Source of the DNA: a virus | Taxonomy: Duplodnaviria; Caudoviricetes | Virus record (IMG/VR): IMGVR_UViG_3300037247_001786 | Span: 384,001-448,000 of that record | DNA: 64,000 nt | Strand: one strand, 5' to 3' | Part shown: positions 2,978 to 38,700 of the stretch, in pieces | Position numbering within the stretch: position 1 is the first letter of the stretch | How the letters are laid out: each line of letters starts with the position of its first letter | Notes under the pieces: model-generated | What the model was told of the DNA's origin: nothing | The model's input: only the letters and a program-made list of their open reading frames with translations | Databases searched by the model: none | Position numbers and translations under genes: made by a program

Positions 2978-4756
2978 ATGACAAGTCAAACAACGCAAAA
3001 ACGTCAACTCAAAATGGACCCTAACCTATTATTAGATGTTATAGGTCGGCAAGCTGGCACCCTTGATAAAGCTGTATTAGAGGGTGGGATGAACGGTATA
3101 GAGGCTATAAATGCAGTTATACAAGATAAGGGAAGTTGCGAAGATGAGGGTATCTACATTACCTTTAAAAAGGGTAGGAAAGATGTTCTTACTATACAAG
3201 ATTATGGTAAGGGTATAACTACTAAAAAAGAGATAGAAGAATTCTTTGAAACCTTTGGCACCCCTCACGCGGAAAACGAACATAAAATCTATGCTCAATT
3301 TAGAATGGGTAGAGGTCAAATGTTCAATTTCGGTCGTAATGTATGGCGTACAGGCACCTTCAAGTTAATCGTCGATATTATGCGTAATGGCTTGGAATGG
3401 GAATTAGAAGAAAACCTACCCTTTGTATCTGGTTGTCATATCGAGATAGAATTGTATGACAAGTATAAGAATAGCTGGCCCGCAAATACGGTCGATTGCC
3501 TCAAAGATGCAGTCAAGAAACAGATGGAATTTGTTTCCTCTCCTGTATACTTTAATGGGGAACAGATTAGTACCCCACCTAAAGATTTGACATGGGACGA
3601 AGAAGATGATTTCGCTTATTACAGTTTTGGCGTAGGGGATAGTCTAAAGATTTATAATCTTGGAGTCTATGTTAGAGATAACCACAGAACGAGTGGTATC
3701 ATCGTAAGTAAGCAACAGTTGAGAGTTAATTTTCCGCGTAATGACGTTATGGCTGATTGCGTAATATGGTATCATATCGAAAAAGTAGTAAAGAAAAATG
3801 TTGTTAATAGGTCGAAGAAAAAATATATCGCACTAACGAAACATGAACGTAGGGCGATACTGAAAGATATTAGAAATGGAATACAGGAGTATCAAGATGT
3901 AAAAACTTCTCGTATTTTGCAAACTGCCCAAAACAAATATATCAGTTTTAGTATGTTCTTAAAGAATAATCAGCCTTGGACTTTCGCTCATATAGGTAGT
4001 AGACAAGCCGATACCCTAATAGAGCAAGGTAGTCATGTTGTCTTTGCTAAAGAAATGATAGAGGCACTGAATTATTCTGGCGAAGAAAAAGATTTCTTTA
4101 GTTGGTTAATAAAGACCTTATTAGATGGCAATGAGAAATATGGAGAACAAAGCTGGCAACAGTATAATGATTATCCTCTCCAGTATGACTACAAAAAGAT
4201 ATTGGCAAAAGAAAAATTCTATGATAACTTCTGTCATGCTGTATCAAATATGTCAAGTAGTTGTATTACTCTCGCTCAAAACAAGCTAACAAAAGTAGAG
4301 AAAAGGGTTATACAGTCATTGACATACTATAGTTGTTGGGATGCAAGGGTTTTGCGTATGGGAGTATCTGACTCCGCTTCTGCTTGGACAGATGGACACT
4401 CTCATATAACTCTTGATAGAAAGTTTCTAAAGAGACTAAATCTAACGGTAGATAGCGATATTGTTCAACTGTTTACCGTATTAGTCCATGAATTAGCCCA
4501 CAACGACGATACCTCTAATACAGATATTCATGGAGAGGATTTCTATGAATCTTTTCACGCAATTTGTCTTAAAAACTGTTGGGGAAACCCTCTCAATAAT
4601 ATCTTGAAATTCAAGAAGTCTATGGATAGTTTGATGTCAGCAGAACGTAGAGATAAAAGGAAGAAACAAGAGGAAGATAATCTACAAAAGCAAGCTGAAA
4701 AGTTGGGCTTAACAAAAAAGACCAACATACACGATAAAGTCGCAGCCGTAGTATAA
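2978..4756 (+). CDS. GHKL (HSP90/MutL-like) ATPase with C-terminal HExxH zincin motif
   Basis: LEGGMNGIEA (Bergerat N-box-like), TIQDYGKGI (G1 box), QFRMGRGQ (G2-like); C-terminal VLVHELAH...HGEDFY. Confidence 0.75.
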   Translation: MTSQTTQKRQLKMDPNLLLDVIGRQAGTLDKAVLEGGMNGIEAINAVIQDKGSCEDEGIYITFKKGRKDVLTIQDYGKGITTKKEIEEFFETFGTPHAENEHKIYAQFRMGRGQMFNFGRNVWRTGTFKLIVDIMRNGLEWELEENLPFVSGCHIEIELYDKYKNSWPANTVDCLKDAVKKQMEFVSSPVYFNGEQISTPPKDLTWDEEDDFAYYSFGVGDSLKIYNLGVYVRDNHRTSGIIVSKQQLRVNFPRNDVMADCVIWYHIEKVVKKNVVNRSKKKYIALTKHERRAILKDIRNGIQEYQDVKTSRILQTAQNKYISFSMFLKNNQPWTFAHIGSRQADTLIEQGSHVVFAKEMIEALNYSGEEKDFFSWLIKTLLDGNEKYGEQSWQQYNDYPLQYDYKKILAKEKFYDNFCHAVSNMSSSCITLAQNKLTKVEKRVIQSLTYYSCWDARVLRMGVSDSASAWTDGHSHITLDRKFLKRLNLTVDSDIVQLFTVLVHELAHNDDTSNTDIHGEDFYESFHAICLKNCWGNPLNNILKFKKSMDSLMSAERRDKRKKQEEDNLQKQAEKLGLTKKTNIHDKVAAVV

Positions 4757-4767
4757 AAATTTTATAC

Positions 4768-4795
4768 TTGCAAGTGATTTATTATCTGTTATAAT
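4768..4795 (+). promoter_or_regulatory. Sigma70-like promoter (class II)
   Basis: TTGCAA-N16-TATAAT, with GTGATTT following the -35; sits directly upstream of element copy 4796. Confidence 0.55.
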
Positions 4796-4862
4796 TTGCC
4801 AGAGTGTAGAAAATCTAAATTTATAGTATTGTAAAATAAAGTTTAATTAAAAGGATATAGCC

Positions 4863-21011: not shown

Positions 21012-21812
21012 ATGGACGGTTTAATGATTGACACAAAAGACAGCGGTATCGTAACAATAGAAAGAGCATTTTCTATTCCTGTTCCCGAAGAAACAAAGAC
21101 GTACAAGCCTGTCGGTAATGAGGCTCTTTGGAAAATGCTCCAGAGAACTGCCAATGTAAGAGGGCTGGAGTTAGGTACTCCTGAAATGGGACTCGCTCAA
21201 AAGGGACAGCGACTTTTTGGTCAAGTCGAGATTGTCAATCAAGACCATCTTGATAACGAAGTTCGTTTGATGCTTGGTTTCCGTAACAGCTATAACCGAT
21301 CGATGTCAGTCGGAATCTGTTTCGGAAGTAAAGTTTTTGTATGTTCTAATATGTGTTTTACGGGATATACTTCTGAAGATGAGGATGCGGTAGGTCAAGT
21401 TCATCATCGTCATCAAGCAAATGTATGGGAAGGGCTGCAAGAACGACTTAATGAGGCTTTGGATAAGTTCGAGGTATTCAAGAGCTATCAGAACGACTTT
21501 TACAGTAAGCTGAAAGAAAACGAGTTAACGGATGCGGAAGCCCATGATTTGATTATCAATTCAGTTCGGCATGAAGCAATTACGGCTAAAGATTGTTTCA
21601 CAGTTGCCGAAGAATGGGCGTTCCAGAATAGAGGCCCGCAAGATGATAGCGAAGAAGATAGATGGCATAAAGAATTCCTGCCCAGAAACGCTTGGAGCCT
21701 CTTCAATGCTTATACCGAGATACATAAGGGATTTCAGATAAAGAACCCCCTTGAAGCGAATTTGAGGTCTATCAAGATGAATAAGTTCTTTCATAACCAG
21801 TTTATGAGTTAA
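21012..21812 (+). CDS. DUF932-like phage/plasmid protein
   Basis: TKTYKPV...LMLGFRNSYNRSMSVGICFGSKVFVCSNMCF...NAWSLFNAYTE. Confidence 0.7.
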   Translation: MDGLMIDTKDSGIVTIERAFSIPVPEETKTYKPVGNEALWKMLQRTANVRGLELGTPEMGLAQKGQRLFGQVEIVNQDHLDNEVRLMLGFRNSYNRSMSVGICFGSKVFVCSNMCFTGYTSEDEDAVGQVHHRHQANVWEGLQERLNEALDKFEVFKSYQNDFYSKLKENELTDAEAHDLIINSVRHEAITAKDCFTVAEEWAFQNRGPQDDSEEDRWHKEFLPRNAWSLFNAYTEIHKGFQIKNPLEANLRSIKMNKFFHNQFMS

Positions 21813-21819
21813 GACAAAG

Positions 21820-21853
21820 AAGGGGAAGGACATCGAAAGTTCTTCCCCTTTTT
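21820..21853 (+). terminator. Intrinsic terminator
   Basis: AAGGGGAAGGA...TTCTTCCCCTT + T-run, abutting element 21852. Confidence 0.75.
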
Positions 21854-21891
21854 GCCAGAGTGGTAAAAATTTAATCTTATAGTAGTATGAT

Positions 21892-22007
21892 GAGGCAGTC
21901 GGCGGAAAGAGAGTTGCCGTCAGAGCAAAGTTGCGGTCGAACCTACTCAAATATCGTAAAGTGCCTTGCAAGGAAACATGATATTCTTTGCCTGCCTCGT
22001 TTTTTTT
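21892..22007 (+). ncRNA. Candidate structured ncRNA cassette
   Basis: Directly after element 21852; closing stem GAGGCAG/CTGCCTC then T-run; internal stems CGGC/GCCG, GCAAAG/CTTTGC, AATATCGT/ATGATATT, CCTTGCAAGG; no ORF. Confidence 0.65.
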
Positions 22008-22052
22008 GTAATAGTATTTTGCCAGAGTGGTAAAAATTTAATCTTATAGTAT

Positions 22053-22281
22053 TGTAGGATGTTCGAGAATTAACGCATTCGTGGTGAAAGCCCATTTGAA
22101 TATCCTGCATATTTTTGAAGTAATGAGGTAGTGGCGGTAAATGGTCAAGCTAGCCAATGTCCGATTGCATACGATTTACGCATTATGCCTCCTCATTTTT
22201 TTTGAAGTAATGAAGTAGTGGCGGTAAGCGACGAACTGCTATCCGATTGCATACGACTCTATGCCTACTTCATTATTTTTT
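22053..22281 (+). ncRNA. Candidate ncRNA cassette: one hairpin RNA plus two tandem homologous structured RNAs
   Basis: 22053-22109 12-bp closing stem; 22117-22197 and 22204-22275 share GAAGTAATGARGTAGTGGCGGTAA and TCCGATTGCATACGA...TATGCCT with covarying closing stems. Confidence 0.7.
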
Positions 22282-22360
22282 ACACTGAAAAAAGATATTG
22301 TATAACCAGTATGTAATTTATTATCGGACGTTAAAATAGCATAAGCTGTTTTCGTATATA

Positions 22361-22681
22361 TTGTTAAGTTGGAGTAGTATTATGTGTAAGTTAGAATTTT
22401 TGGACAAGCATTTAGTATCACTGATAACGATTGTTATCTTGGCAGCAGTACTATTTGCGACAAGTGGTTGTGGGGTAGTCGATGGGGCTTTGCAAGATAT
22501 AGCTGGGACAGCTACTGCTTTAAGAGAAATCTCTAAGCCATTAGAAGAGAGAGCAAGAGCTAAAGATGCAGAAAGAAATGCAAAGTGGCTTACTATCTGG
22601 ACTATGCAACAGGAAGATTATAAAGAGATAGGGCATGAACCTAAAAAATTGCCTAAATTTCTTAAATTTGGTAAGAAATAG
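22361..22681 (+). CDS. Putative lipoprotein
   Basis: Hydrophobic stretch ending in lipobox-like ATSGC. Confidence 0.45.
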   Translation: MLSWSSIMCKLEFLDKHLVSLITIVILAAVLFATSGCGVVDGALQDIAGTATALREISKPLEERARAKDAERNAKWLTIWTMQQEDYKEIGHEPKKLPKFLKFGKK

Positions 22682-23405
22682 ACATTAACAAAAGAGGGTA
22701 GTCATATTCTTTTGAGTATTACTATCCTCTTTGTTTTTAATATTAAATTAATTTTAGGAGATTTATAATGTTTAGTTCCATAGATGGTGGTTTTCAAATA
22801 GTTTTAGAAGGTTTATTTACAATGGATTTCTCTTGGTTTTTTATGTTCTGCTTAATAGCGGTACTTAATGTAATTAAAGTCCCAATAATGATAATAAAGA
22901 AGTTGAAAAAATAAGGGGTATACGATGGAGATTTACTTTTATTTTCCCTTAACAGTTTTATTTTTTATGAATGTCGTGAAGAAAATTTTCTAATTGCCAG
23001 AGTGGTAAAAAAATAGGTTTATAGTAATATGAAAATGATTAAAAAATGGCTTATACCTATTATTATAACATTGTTAATCGCTCTGTTTGCAGTTTGTTGT
23101 GCAAAAAAACAAGTGGAAAAAACAGTGCAACAAGATAGAATCTTAATGGAGAAATAAAATGATTTGCCCATATTGTATAAAAGAAATTAGTATGTTCGCG
23201 ACAAAATGTCCTTATTGTCACAGTGCAGTTCAGTATGATGCTGGCTCCGAGCTTAAAGATTGTTTTAAGGCACTTGTTATTATGGTAATAGTAGGTATAA
23301 TTTTATGGGCGATATTGTCGGCGGTATAAGTTGCCAGAGTGGTAAAAAAATAGTCTTATAGTATTATAAAGTTAATATCTTGAATTTTGATTAGGAGCTG
23401 AAAAA

Positions 23406-30145: not shown

Positions 30146-30349
30146 GCCGGGAGTCGTAGAAGTAGAAACAGAGTAGCGGAATGCCGAACCCCCTTAAGCA
30201 AGGGCTTGACCGCGGGCGAAAGGTTTTTACCGAAGCTATTAGGGTAGATAGACGTACCCCTAATAGAAGCATAGAGAAAACTAACTAATAGTTGAGCTTG
30301 AACTGGGTTGACTTTCTCTTAAACTCTTAACGGGGTTCTCCTGGCACCA
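30146..30349 (+). ncRNA. Candidate ~200-nt structured ncRNA with acceptor-like stem and 3' ACCA
   Basis: After element 30092; GCCGGGAG...CTCCTGGC-A-CCA then T-run; internal hairpins CCCTT/AAGGG, CTATTAGGG/CCCTAATAG, AGAGAAA/TTTCTCT; no ORF. Confidence 0.65.
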
Positions 30350-32498: not shown

Positions 32499-33628
32499 TT
32501 GCCAGAGTAGTAATTTTTCTATCTTATGATATTGTAAAGAACAATATTTTAAGGAAAATATAATGCCAGAAACAATTGACATATCAAAAGAATATCCCAC
32601 TGCACTAAAAGCAGAAAAAAGACGCATAAATATCTTAATATTAAGAAATATTAACCCTATAAAACGTCTTGATGGGAAAATGGCCTGTTACTCATTAGAG
32701 TATTGTTGGCTTAGGGATTCCGAGGATATTACTTCAGTACAAGGTAGCGATTTCTCCTATTGGACTAAAGCAGAGCTTAAATGGGATGAATGTTTATTCG
32801 ATCAAGTTAATCTATTTTAATAATTTGCCAGAGTAGGAAAAAATAAGGTTTATAATATTATGAGACGATTAAACAAAAAACAAAAGAGACGAATTGATAG
32901 CTGGTTCAATAAAAACTGGAAAGGTGCTGGTAGCATCGGGGGAATAGATGATCTTCCCTATGATGTATATCAAGAATTAGAAGATATGAATGACTTTGAA
33001 ACAATATGGCAACATACAAACAATTATATCATGGAAAAGGCTCTAAATGCTTAAAATCAAAATAACTTGGAACGGCGTTATATATGACGCTAAAGTCATT
33101 AGTGATTATAAGGTCGAGATATTAGATACAGATATAAACCAAACTATTGAACTCGATCAATGCAAACATTGTGGAGTCTGGTTATCCGAAGAAGAGGGCT
33201 GTTATGGAGACGGTTATTGCGATGGATGTGCTGCAATGTGTATTCACTGCGAACTCTATCATAACGCTGCTGATATGATACCTCCAGAAAAAGATGGAGA
33301 AGAGTATGTATGTAAAGAATGTGATAGTAAATTGCCAGAGTGATCATTTTCTGGTCTTATAGTATTATAAAGACGACGCATTTGGTACTGCGGTTTTTTT
33401 GCTCATTGAATAGATGATACCTAATAGTCTTACTGTAACAAAGTAAAATCGAGCTTAGGAAATCGAGCTTTTAGGAGACAATGTCGCTATTCATACATTT
33501 TTGAATCCTTCTTAAGATTAGGCGGTAGTTAATTCTACCGTCTTTTTTTCGCGAAAATAAATTGCCAGAGTAGTAAATTTTCTATCTTATTAAGGTATAA
33601 ACAACGATAACCTTTTGGAGATAGAACA

Positions 33629-35728: not shown

Positions 35729-38700
35729 AGTGAAAAAACAGATGAACAAATAGTCGAAGCATTGAAATCTTTGGGTTATATACCCGTTAAAGATAAGGGA
35801 TATTTTACCGAAGGGGTTGACGCCCAACAAGTATTGTTTTATAATCCAAAGACTAAATTGGGGTTACAGGTATGGATTGCCTCACCCGGTGATCAAGATG
35901 TTTTTGATGAATATTATATGCAAGAGGTTGACGGTCAATTTGGTACGAATGTCATAGAATCCCAATAATTGCCAGAGTAGTAATTTTTCTATCTTATAGT
36001 ATTGTAAACAATAACAATAACTTTTTTGGAGACTGAAAAATGACAACGAAAACAAATGTAGAAGTTTCAAGCGATGCTCTTCACAGAGCCACAAAAATGG
36101 CACAACAAATGAAGCAAAATGTAGTCGTCTTTAAGTCAAAACTCGGTAAAAAAGATACTGAATTTTGTACTGCACAAAAAGTATGGGACGATTCAGAAGA
36201 GAAACAAGATGTAGAATTCCTCGCAATTATCGACGCAAATGGCAATTACGTCGATTAACGATATAGATTCGTCCCAATAGGCCAATGCAGGTATCAAATG
36301 TCTGGAAGCCTGGCGGGGCGTCTTATTTTTTGCCAGAGTAGTAAAAAACAACTCTTATAGTATTAACAAGGGTAAAACCCATTATATAAAATAATTTTAA
36401 CTGTTAGCCCGAAAGGATGGTGTACTCTGTTTTAATGTAAAAAAATAGATTCTTAATTAAATTGATTGTTTGTCGGTATTGCATAACCGTCATATAGGGC
36501 AAATCTGGCGGGGTTCAGGTTTGCTCTTTTTTCGCGAAAATAAATTGCCAGAGTGACAAAAAAACTGTCTTATAAAGGTATAAACAACAATAATACTTTT
36601 TGGAGATAAGAAAATGACTGAACGACATAAACTATCAGCGTATATGCAAGACAGAGGTTTTGAACTCGATACAATGACATCAATGACAGCAGGCACAACC
36701 TCTATGATAGGACACCACCGAGTAACAGAGTATGGTGAACATAACATCATAAGTGGTATCCGTTTTGTCAACTTCTCTGGCGTCGATACAAAAGAAGGCG
36801 ATCTGGGGTGCGTTACTCTGTATTATACAGGGACAACAAGAAAAAAATACCACAGGCAATCCCATGACTCCGAAATACTAAAGAAAGCGTTTTGTCCTAA
36901 AGACGCAGAAGAGGCAATAAAGATATATGATATATGGAAAGTCGAAACATATAATACAATACAATCATGGAAAGTTATTATATAATTGCCAGAGTAGTAA
37001 AAAATGGCTCTTATAGTATTGTAAAGGAAACGATAACTTTTTGGAGTAAAGAAAATGACATACGGACAAATAAAACAAGATTTATCTTCTATCAATCTTG
37101 AGGGTAAAACCAAACATCAAAAAGGCAATCACGAGATTTTAGTTAATTGGACTAAACCGTTCGCAGATGAAGCAGTTGTAGATCCACAAAATCTCAGAGA
37201 AATCCGTAAGCGGATAAAAAACATCAAGAAAAACATCGTAAAAATGAGCGAAATCACAAAGAGCAAAATCAACGCTCTCAATGACGGTATTTGCGATACT
37301 CTTTGTAGCCTTTACTCTCGTTGGCAAGAAGAAAAAGAATATGAGGATTGGGATGATTATATATCGGTAATGAAGAAAAAGTTCGAGACATTGATTGTCG
37401 ATAATAACATGACAAACGCTGTCTATTATTCTTGCGGTAAAAGACCTTTTGGCTTGACTTTCGACTTTGAGGGTCATAGAGTAACTGTATATGCTAACTC
37501 CAGTAGTTACGGTTGGAAATCGAAACCTTTATAATTGCCAGAGTAGTAAAAAAACAACCTTATAGGGTTGTAAAGAACAATAACAACCTTTTTGGAGATA
37601 ACGAAATGGTAAGACAATTAACTAAAAATCTATACGACGCTTTAATGTTTGATACTGGCCCCGGAGCGGCTGCGATAACTGACTTCGGATTAGGACATTC
37701 AGGCAGCGAACAACATACAGTACTTCAAAGAGCTGTAAGAGCAGGAGCGACAGCAGAGGAACTCGACAAAGCCCTCGGAAATGGCGAGAGAATAGCTAAA
37801 CTCGTCAAAGATTATACAGAAATCGAAACTGAATTTCATACTGCTTGGGATGACATAAGAGAGGAAACTCTAAAACAAATCAAAGAACTTGAAATAAAAA
37901 GAGTAATAACAGATGACGAAAGACTACAATTAGATGAACTATATGAAGCTATTAAAACTCTCTAACTCCAAATGAGAGGTTATTGTTGGAACTACATTCT
38001 GGTATTGCGTAAATGCCAGAGTGTAGTTTTTTATATCTTATTAAGGTATAATCAACAATAACTTTAATCGGAGATAAAATATGTTTTGCATGTTTATCAA
38101 AGTAAATACAAAATGGTACACCAGAAATATCACAAACGTCCCAACTGCCGCCGTACACGCACACGTCGCTAACGGCGAAATGGTTATTTTTATGGATGAT
38201 ATAGTGGACTTCTGCTATACCATGAAAGTAAAAATGGAAGATATTACACTGATAACAAAAATGGAAGATATTCCAAGGGAATAATTGCCAGAGTAGTAAA
38301 AAAGTGAGTTTATAGTAATGTAAACAATAACTTTTGCGGAGTAAAAATATGCGAATTATAATCGAAAATGTAAATCTATTAAAGAAGAGAATCAAAACCT
38401 TTATTAGAGCGTCCGAATACCTGTTGAAAAACAGAAAAGAGATGTATTGGTCAAGATGGGAAATGAAGAGAGGAAAAATCCAAAATGTCTCTTTAACCAA
38501 ATCAAAAAGACGGTATAAAGAACTATGGATAAATAGATATAATGAAGTATTTTATTGTCTCGAATCCAATGACTTTAGCAAAATAGATTGGATAGAGGTC
38601 AGAGATGTCCTGTATTGGTGCGGTTTCCAAATCGAAATGAAAAACGAAAAAAGCTATAAAGCATTAAGAGAGTCCAGAAAAGATATAGTAATTGCCGTCG

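What the first reader, a model, noticed from the sequence alone, without database searches (positions are those of the whole stretch)
22117..22281. Tandem pair of a small structured RNA motif with covariation, inside an element-driven cassette
Seen: two units (22117-22197, 22204-22275), each ending in a T-run. They share GAAGTAATGARGTAGTGGCGGTAA, TCCGATTGCATACGA and TATGCCT. The closing stem covaries: AATGAGG/CCTCATT versus TAATGAAGTAG/CTACTTCATTA. GCATA/TATGC is kept with different loop lengths, and CGG/CCG flanks a variable hairpin. I do not recognise the motif as a known riboswitch or ribozyme. Inference: a functional ncRNA family (sRNA, protein sponge or antitoxin-like RNA).
Basis: partly seen in the sequence, partly recalled or inferred. 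Interest (0 to 1): 0.72.

Follow-up and report, generated by a model that had tools for sequence, protein, structure and literature searches.

The report
New folded small RNA in huge phage
Two neighbouring copies of an undescribed 75-85-nt folded RNA lie among the early genes of a 461-kb uncultivated marine-sediment phage. Related strains keep its three-stem fold through matched base changes, so it is very probably a real RNA gene, but what it does is still unknown.

Summary
Units A (22117-22203) and B (22204-22281) are paralogues, each a three-way junction closed by a 10-11-bp stem and followed by a T-run. No Rfam 15 family or tRNA model matches them.

The window belongs to a 461-kb phage with terminal repeats. 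About 72 copies of one promoter box head short early cassettes there, and the units lie in the cassette of the box at 22019.

Anchoring on the downstream lipoprotein gene recovered two more copies in related strains:
- A' in L223 starts about 35 nt after a promoter box, at the inferred transcription start.
- C in L237 follows an orthologue of the upstream hairpin RNA up2.

Across the four copies, 97.7% of pair cells are standard pairs, against 30-46% in shifted controls. Each of the three helices carries a compensatory double change. The junction strands never vary, although neighbouring third codon positions differ by 15-17%.

Three further relatives keep the lipoprotein gene and its conserved upstream region without any unit, which argues against a riboswitch. 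Copy number is one or two, so the tandem arrangement is not essential.

Best reading: a new, narrowly distributed, early-expressed small RNA gene that ends at its own terminator and probably acts in trans through its invariant junction. Transcription and function are untested.

The parts
22019..22051 (+). Early promoter box (TTGCCAGAGTGGTAAAAA...TTATAGTA) heading the cassette. The transcription start is inferred about 35 nt after the first base of the box.
   Evidence: There are 44 box copies in the window and 72 on the + strand of the genome, against 0.08 expected by chance. A box also heads a tRNA whose 5' end lies 38 nt after the box start.
22054..22116 (+). up2: a promoter-proximal hairpin RNA with a 14-bp closing stem, two small internal hairpins and a weak T5 run. 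It is a different sequence family from the units.
   Evidence: Fold z-score -3.4. It is 94% conserved at L237 1940-2002, directly after a promoter box there.
22117..22203 (+). Unit A. P1: 22122-22131 with 22189-22197. P2: 22135-37 with 22161-63, plus an inner helix 22142-45 with 22153-56. Junction strands: TGG at 22132-34 and ATT at 22164-66. P3: 22167-71 with 22184-88, with a 12-nt loop. T8: 22196-22203.
   Evidence: R1 scores 103.5 bits. RNAalifold recovers the same three helices. Its orthologue A' in L223 differs only by structure-preserving changes.
22204..22281 (+). Unit B. P1: 22208-22218 with 22265-22275. P2: 22222-24 with 22243-45, plus 22227-30 with 22237-40. P3: 22249-53 with 22260-64, with a 6-nt loop. 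T6: 22276-22281.
   Evidence: R1 scores 90.9 bits. The minimum-free-energy fold equals the consensus fold, z -4.6. The closest relative is unit C in L237.
21852..22008 (+). Neighbouring cassette: a promoter box plus up1 (21887-22008), a possible distant paralogue with four helices. Its 5' end (ATGAGGCAGTCGGCGGAAA) and its 3' end with T-run resemble those of the units.
   Evidence: Seen in the sequence. R1 and R2 do not detect it, so membership is unproven. It also reads as a 48-aa ORF starting at the inferred transcription start.
22282..22681 (+). Context, not part of the RNA: a conserved ~100-nt upstream region (22282-22381) and a lipoprotein-like ORF (22382-22681). These served as the anchor for finding relatives.
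   Evidence: Six relatives keep the upstream region and the ORF. Only three of them carry a unit.

Best explanation
A and B are two paralogous genes for a new small non-coding RNA of a huge phage.

Proposed sequence of events:
- An early phage promoter fires. In the window this is the box at 22019, reading through up2. In relative L223 a box lies directly in front of the unit.
- The RNA folds into a three-way junction. P1 is formed by the two ends (10-11 bp). P2 is CGG/CCG, an internal loop and a variable hairpin. P3 is a 5-bp hairpin that abuts the 3' strand of P1 with no linker.
- P1 plus the following U6-U9 run acts as an intrinsic terminator. This releases a 75-85-nt RNA with both ends buried in a helix.

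The stems change only in compensated ways, whereas the junction strands (UGG, AUU), the CGG/CCG helix and the base of P3 never change. I therefore infer that the junction is the surface read by a partner. The RNA would act in trans early in infection, most likely as a protein-binding or decoy RNA in host takeover or counter-defence.

Shown: the paralogy, the conserved fold, the strand, the position behind promoters and the independence from the downstream gene.

Inferred: transcription, termination, action in trans and the kind of partner.
For: 1. Four copies in three strains (window A and B; L223 4745-4826; L237 2003-2072) score 80-103 bits with R1.
2. 97.7% of pair cells are standard pairs, against 30-46% when partners are slid. 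The covariation score is reached by only 2 of 500 shuffles. Each of the three helices has a double compensatory change: 12-78 G-C/A-U, 27-41 U-A/C-G, 53-72 C-G/U-A. RNAalifold predicts the same fold on its own.
3. G-U pairs at 10-80, 26-42 and 28-40 would be C-A mismatches on the other strand, so the + strand is the RNA. Promoters and T-runs point the same way.
4. A versus A': all three changes inside the fold preserve pairing and the unpaired core has no change. Third codon positions of the adjacent gene differ by 15-17% and its upstream region by 16-19%.
5. In L223 the unit begins 2-4 nt after the inferred start of a promoter box. The same box class heads tRNAs.
6. L224, L225 and L226 keep the lipoprotein gene and its upstream region without a unit, so the unit is a separate cassette.
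7. Ordinary terminators in this region are simple hairpins, for example 21817-21853. The junction is therefore not a general terminator design.
Against: - No RNA data are available, so transcription, RNA ends and abundance are unobserved.
- There are only four sequences from very close strains, and the alignment was fitted to the model. The shuffle statistics are therefore weak. Three pairs with double changes were matched by 80 of 500 shuffles.
- A and B have no promoter of their own and lie behind a terminator-like hairpin.
- A' in L223 lacks a U-run.
- For A and A' the consensus fold is 1.1 and 3.5 kcal/mol above the minimum.
- No candidate partner protein or target was found.
- The family was not found in IMG/VR, JGI metagenome contigs or GTDB genomes by pattern scans, so any function is confined to a narrow lineage.
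Confidence: 0.55

Rival explanations
1. Base-pairing regulatory sRNA. The same transcript acts through a short seed in a loop or junction on a host or phage mRNA, with the terminator U-tail serving as a chaperone handle.
For: It has a promoter-to-terminator architecture with a 3' U-run. The P2 loop sequence is conserved within each subtype (CAAGCUA in A and A', ACGAAC in B and C) while the stem below it covaries.
Against: There is no excess of complementarity to the phage genome. Complementary matches of 10-12 nt are fewer than for shuffled units. The invariant parts are mostly inside helices or the junction rather than an exposed single strand. The host is unknown, so host targets could not be tested.
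Confidence: 0.15
2. Elaborate terminator or insulator modules only. The stems and T-runs stop early transcription before the separately controlled lipoprotein gene. The branched interior has no function of its own, and the similarity between copies reflects recent duplication.
For: A, B and C each end in a strong stem plus U6-U9. They always lie at the 3' end of an early cassette, just before the conserved upstream region. In L223 the position of B is taken by a plain long hairpin with the same closing stem (B', z -7.3). L224 has only a simple hairpin there.
Against: A terminator needs only a stem and a U-run. Here the interior junction is invariant in four copies, and the inner helices P2 and P3 show compensatory changes. 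A' has no U-run yet keeps the whole fold. Other terminators nearby are simple hairpins.
Confidence: 0.15
3. Cis-acting attenuator or riboswitch. Ligand-stabilised P1 terminates transcription and so controls read-through into the lipoprotein gene. The tandem copies would sharpen the response.
For: P1 doubles as a terminator stem. The junction is invariant, as in an aptamer core. The units lie upstream of a gene that has no early box of its own.
Against: The gene and its ~100-nt conserved upstream region occur without any unit in L224, L225 and L226. That region has its own promoter-like -10 and start sequence. A' lacks a U-run. No Rfam riboswitch matches even at E<=10.
Confidence: 0.05
4. Mimic of a host RNA used against a defence system. 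Candidates are a pseudo-antitoxin of a type III toxin-antitoxin system, a CRISPR-repeat mimic (Racr), or a tRNA-like or Y-RNA-like decoy.
For: The location is early-expressed and rich in takeover genes; another reader noted PARP and macrodomain genes upstream. The copies are tandem in one strain. Racrs are solitary non-coding repeat mimics encoded in viral genomes (PMC10651486, abstract).
Against: No Rfam family (ToxI, tRNA, Y RNA) matches. The unit is 87 nt, whereas type III antitoxin repeats are 34-45 nt (my own knowledge). Copy number is one in two of the three strains. No ToxN, TROVE, RtcB or reverse transcriptase gene was found in the phage. The host and its CRISPR repeats are unknown, so mimicry cannot be tested.
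Confidence: 0.07
5. Non-functional repeat: a duplicated intergenic remnant, or a mini-ORF (ATG-AGG/AAG-TAG is present in every copy).
For: Distribution is very narrow and the region is mosaic, with frequent cassette exchange. A three-codon ORF is conserved.
Against: Compensatory changes occur in three helices and the core is invariant against 15-17% neutral divergence. The AGG/AAG difference is compensated on the opposite strand of P1, as expected for RNA pairing and not for coding. The ATG lies inside P1 with no proper ribosome-binding spacing.
Confidence: 0.03

Closest known systems
Phage T4 stable RNAs C and D (species 1 and 2), encoded beside the T4 tRNA cluster (my own knowledge, not checked here)
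   Same: Small stable non-coding RNAs of a large virulent phage. They are paralogous to each other, sit beside tRNA and other RNA genes, are expressed early, have their ends paired in a stem, and still have no known function.
   Different: No sequence or model similarity was tested or is expected. The T4 RNAs are about 120-140 nt and are processed from the tRNA precursor. Here each unit has its own stem and U-run, and one copy starts at a promoter.
Adenovirus VA RNA I and II (analogy only, my own knowledge)
   Same: Tandem paralogous viral RNAs ending in a U-run, with a terminal stem made of both ends and a branched central domain. They act as protein-binding decoys of a host defence protein.
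   Different: VA RNAs belong to a eukaryotic virus, are pol III transcripts and are about 160 nt. There is no homology, and a decoy function here is only an inference.
RNA anti-CRISPRs (Racr), PMC10651486
   Same: Small non-coding RNAs encoded in phage genomes outside any ORF that act by mimicking a host RNA.
   Different: Racrs are defined by resemblance to CRISPR repeats. No such resemblance could be tested because the host is unknown, and the unit is a branched 75-85-nt RNA rather than a single repeat hairpin.
Pseudo-ToxI repeats of phage phiTE / type III antitoxin RNAs (my own knowledge)
   Same: Tandem direct RNA repeats in a phage, followed by a terminator, with variable copy number between strains.
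   Different: ToxI-type repeats are 34-45 nt pseudoknots cut by a ToxN nuclease. Here the units are 87 nt, number one or two, form three-way junctions, each have a terminator, and match no Rfam family.
Intrinsic (Rho-independent) terminators
   Same: A stem directly followed by a U-run in A, B and C, positioned at the end of a transcription unit.
   Different: The 'loop' is a conserved two-hairpin junction of about 45-60 nt with its own covariation, and A' keeps the fold without a U-run.

Membership tests
Any Rfam 15 family | Covariance-model score at or above the gathering threshold | tested here: not met
   Only four tRNAs in the window pass. With E<=10 on 21700-22400, nothing overlaps 22117-22281.
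tRNA or tRNA-like | Cloverleaf with D, anticodon and T arms, a 7-bp acceptor stem and a CCA or discriminator end | tested here: not met
   ARAGORN and RF00005 find nothing here. The fold has three helices, a 10-11-bp closing stem and no CCA.
Intrinsic terminator | A stable stem immediately followed by a run of U | tested here: met
   A has T8, B has T6 and C has T9 directly after P1. This is not met in A' of L223. Termination activity itself is not testable with these tools.
Riboswitch or cis-regulatory leader | Conserved linkage of the aptamer to the regulated downstream gene | tested here: not met
   The lipoprotein gene and its conserved upstream region occur without a unit in L224, L225 and L226.
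Type III antitoxin RNA (ToxI-like) or phage pseudo-antitoxin | An array of 34-45-nt direct repeats that partner a ToxN-family endoribonuclease | tested here: not met
   The period is 87 nt and copy number is one or two. No ToxN match was found in the phage, although the control genomes did not respond either. No Rfam match. A host toxin could not be examined.
RNA anti-CRISPR (Racr) | Sequence and structure mimicry of a CRISPR repeat of the host | not testable with these tools
   The host is unknown. The definition is taken from the abstract of PMC10651486.
Y RNA / YrlA | A Ro-binding stem plus an associated Rsr (TROVE) protein, often with RtcB | tested here: not met
   The phage has no TROVE or RtcB gene and there is no Rfam match. 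Host genes could not be examined.
Retron msr/msd | An adjacent reverse transcriptase gene | tested here: not met
   No RVT_1 match anywhere in the 461-kb genome. The downstream ORF is a 99-aa lipoprotein-like protein.
Small self-cleaving ribozymes (hammerhead, twister, pistol, hatchet, HDV-like) | Conserved catalytic core recognised by the family model | tested here: not met
   No Rfam match at E<=10. The junction strands are only UGG, AUU and zero nt, with no CUGANGA or GAAA core. Cleavage itself is not testable here.

The most novel reading that the evidence does not exclude
The unit is one member of a battery of early, ORF-less RNA cassettes (up1, up2, A and B, and the 204-nt RNA with a CCA end at 30146-30349). 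With these the huge phage would deploy structured decoy RNAs against host RNA-binding immune or housekeeping proteins. The invariant three-way junction would be a new protein-recognition motif, and the unit an RNA-based anti-defence factor unrelated to CRISPR-repeat or antitoxin mimics.
Probability: 0.12. Interest if true: 0.8.

Novelty: new member of a known kind. Interest (0 to 1): 0.45.

Why it matters
Huge phages are known almost only from metagenomes, and their non-coding RNAs are essentially uncharted. This is a compact RNA of 75-85 nt that can be synthesised. It has a clear fold, natural compensatory variants, and natural one-copy, two-copy and zero-copy strains.

It lies in an early region where one promoter class drives proteins, tRNAs and several ORF-less RNA cassettes. 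If it binds a host factor, it would add an RNA-based takeover or counter-defence tool. If it is only a terminator, it shows how branched terminators evolve by unequal crossover.

Either way, its very narrow distribution limits how general the result would be.

Tried and rejected
Searches for more copies that found nothing:
- Exact or degenerate pattern scans for the conserved blocks gave only chance hits in coding DNA or none at all. These covered viral contigs, JGI metagenome contigs (all 38 hits inspected) and GTDB genome contigs. R1 and R2 did not match the hits tested.
- A scan of viral contigs for the promoter box returned only single chance matches.
- Synteny through the upstream DUF932 gene: 73 homologues and 10 loci with DNA, none carrying the RNA. 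61 distant IMG/VR DUF932 loci also have none.
- The large terminase subunit found no close relative in IMG/VR. The best phage record is an uncultured 485-kb phage at 25% identity.

Expression:
- No RNA holder was listed for the stretch.

Targets and partners:
- A duplex-energy scan of the genome timed out.
- The k-mer complementarity scan showed no excess over shuffles.
- Two 6-nt complementarities between the unit and the lipoprotein upstream region were considered and dropped, because about 1.7 such matches are expected by chance.
- No TROVE, RtcB, reverse transcriptase or ToxN gene was found in the phage.

Alternative structure:
- A possible pairing between the P3 loop of A (AUUUACGC) and GCGGUAAAU was considered. 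B and C lack it, so it was not adopted.

Full report
**What is there**

The window is bases 384001-448000 of a 460,978-bp virus record with direct terminal repeats. Sequencing runs that hold the stretch come from marine sediment and marine metagenomes.

One promoter-like box (TTGCCAGAGTG..AAAAA..TTATAGTA) occurs 44 times in the window and 72 times on the + strand of the genome, almost all between 367 and 428 kb. Chance expectation is 0.08. Each box heads a short cassette. Many ORFs start exactly 35 nt after the first base of the box, and at genome position 373768 a box heads a tRNA whose 5' end lies 38 nt after the box start. I therefore take about +35 as the transcription start.

**The observation**

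Units A (22117-22203) and B (22204-22281) are as described. They share an identical 24-nt 5' block apart from one R position, an identical 15-nt block, TATGCCT, and T-runs of 8 and 6.

Both fold into the same three-way junction:
- P1 is made of the two ends: 9 pairs plus a bulge in A, and 11 pairs in B.
- P2 is CGG/CCG, an internal loop and a variable hairpin.
- P3 is GCAUA/UAUGC with a loop of 12 or 6 nt, and it abuts the 3' strand of P1 without a linker.

For B this fold is the minimum-free-energy structure (z -4.6). For A it lies 1.1 kcal/mol above the minimum. Rfam 15 has no match at gathering thresholds or at E<=10, and ARAGORN finds no tRNA here. A covariance model of the pair (R1) finds only A and B in the whole genome.

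**Context in the window**

The box at 21852 heads up1 (21887-22008). The box at 22019 heads up2 (22054-22116), a different hairpin RNA with a weak T5 run. A and B follow up2 with no box of their own.

Next come a ~100-nt region and a 99-aa lipoprotein-like ORF (22382-22681), then the next box at 22994. The gene upstream is a DUF932 protein ending in a plain hairpin terminator.

**Relatives**

Exact-pattern scans of IMG/VR, JGI metagenome contigs and GTDB genomes gave only chance matches. The DUF932 gene has many homologues at 60-81% identity on contigs of up to 254 kb. The DNA downstream of it is mosaic, and none of ten such loci carries the RNA.

The lipoprotein gene was the useful anchor:
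- L223 (lipoprotein 90% identical) has a variant promoter box followed, 2-4 nt after the inferred start, by unit A' (4745-4826, 86 bits). A' has no U-run. It is followed by B', a long plain hairpin that has the same closing stem and T-run as unit B, with an A-T to T-A swap, but an unrelated interior.
- L237 has a box, an up2 orthologue (94% identical) and a single unit C (2003-2072, 80 bits) with a T9 run.
- L224 has only a short hairpin at this place, and L225 and L226 have a small ORF. All three keep the conserved upstream region and the lipoprotein gene.

**Is the fold conserved?**

Across the four copies, 97.7% of pair cells are standard pairs, against 30-46% when the 3' partners are slid by 1-3 columns. 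The covariation score and the paired fraction are each reached by only 2 of 500 column shuffles.

Every helix has a double compensatory change:
- P1, pair 12-78: G-C in A, A' and C; A-U in B.
- P2, pair 27-41: U-A versus C-G. Pair 28-40 appears as G-C, A-U and G-U.
- P3, pair 53-72: C-G versus U-A in C.

RNAalifold, run without the model structure, returns the same three helices.

The caveats are real. There are only four sequences from close strains, and the alignment was fitted to the model. The count of pairs with double changes is matched by 80 of 500 shuffles.

Independent support comes from rates. Between the window and L223, third codon positions of the lipoprotein gene differ by 17% and its upstream region by 19%. 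Within the fold, A and A' differ at only three positions, all of which preserve pairing, and the roughly 35 unpaired or junction positions show no change. At 16% neutral divergence, the chance of that is about 0.002 (my calculation).

The G-U pairs would be C-A mismatches on the opposite strand, so the + strand is the RNA.

**How the copies evolved**

C combines the 5' strand of A with the P2 and 3' strand of B. This is what unequal crossover within the identical 24-nt block would give, followed by or starting from a compensated pair 12-78. That explains the strains with one or two copies.

Contigs from another study's marine metagenomes bridge the A-B joint. They show a C>T change in the P3 loop of B (22257) and small indels inside the P2 hairpin of A, that is, in the parts that also vary between the four copies.

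**What it is not**

- *Not a riboswitch for the lipoprotein gene.* The gene and its conserved upstream region occur without the unit in three relatives. That region carries its own -10-like and start-like sequence and a covarying hairpin.
- *Not merely a terminator.* The interior junction is invariant, and the inner helices covary. A' keeps the fold without a U-run. Neighbouring terminators are simple hairpins.
- *Not a known mimic class, on present evidence.* There is no Rfam match. The phage has no reverse transcriptase, TROVE, RtcB or ToxN gene. The period is 87 nt and the tandem arrangement is not conserved.
- *No extended complementarity to the phage genome.* Complementary matches are fewer than for shuffled units.

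**Best explanation**

This is a new, narrowly distributed family of early small RNAs. Each is transcribed from an early promoter box and ends at its own P1/U-run terminator, or at the next hairpin in L223. Both ends are protected in P1. The RNA most likely acts in trans through the invariant junction and the base of P3.

I favour a protein-binding or decoy role in takeover or counter-defence, because:
- the conserved surface is structured rather than single-stranded;
- the setting is the early takeover region;
- several other ORF-less structured RNA cassettes lie nearby.

This last step is inference only.

**Verdict**

It is a new RNA family of a known general kind, the phage-encoded small RNA. 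Its function is open and its distribution very narrow. Interest is moderate.

Noticed in passing
window 22282-22381; L223 4900-5000; L224 3250-3348; L225 4896-5000; L226 578-678; L237 2080-2179: The ~100 nt upstream of the lipoprotein gene are conserved in six relatives. They contain ATTATCGGACGT, a hairpin with compensatory changes (TAGC/GCTG, CAAC/GTTG, TGAC/GTCA) and TCGTATWTATTGTTAAGTTGGAG. This looks like a second promoter or operator class, distinct from the early box.
   Followed up: partly
window 22019; L223 4714; L224 3163; L237 1907; L226 170 and 468: The early promoter box differs between close relatives: TTGCCAGAGTGG.. here, TTTCCAGGCGTT.. with a different -10 in L223 and L224, CTCCAGAGGTG.. 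in L237, and AATCCAGACA.. in L225 and L226. Adjacent genes are 55-90% identical, which hints at a co-evolving phage transcription factor.
   Followed up: no
window 21887-22008: up1 shares its 5' 19 nt and its 3' end with T-run with the units, but has a longer four-helix interior and is not detected by R1 or R2. It can also be read as a 48-aa ORF starting at the inferred transcription start and ending LPEW inside the next box.
   Followed up: partly
window 22054-22116; L237 1940-2002: up2 is a distinct small three-way-junction hairpin RNA, 94% conserved in L237. It shares the heptamer ACGCAUU with the P3 loop region of A, A' and C.
   Followed up: partly
L223 4828-4900: B' has the same closing stem and T-run as unit B, with one A-T to T-A swap, but an unrelated long-hairpin interior (z -7.3). 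The interiors of stem-closed modules appear to be exchanged.
   Followed up: partly
genome positions 373768-374100 (10.2 kb before the start of the window): An early box directly heads a cluster of tRNA genes. The first tRNA 5' end lies 38 nt after the box start.
   Followed up: partly
window 30146-30349: An ORF-less cassette encodes a ~204-nt RNA whose ends pair (GCCGGGAG/CTCCTGGC), followed by ACCA and a T-run. ARAGORN does not call it a tRNA or tmRNA.
   Followed up: no
window 33332-33562 and 36330-36545; genome positions 368258-368442: Further box-headed cassettes have no ORF of 30 aa or more. Two end in hairpin plus T-run followed by CGCGAAAATAAAT. The two 92-nt cassettes at genome position 368258 contain an inverted copy of the box.
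   Followed up: no
L150 8724-8801: A related 254-kb contig carries an IS605 OrfB / Cas12f-like TnpB gene about 4 kb downstream of its DUF932 gene.
   Followed up: no
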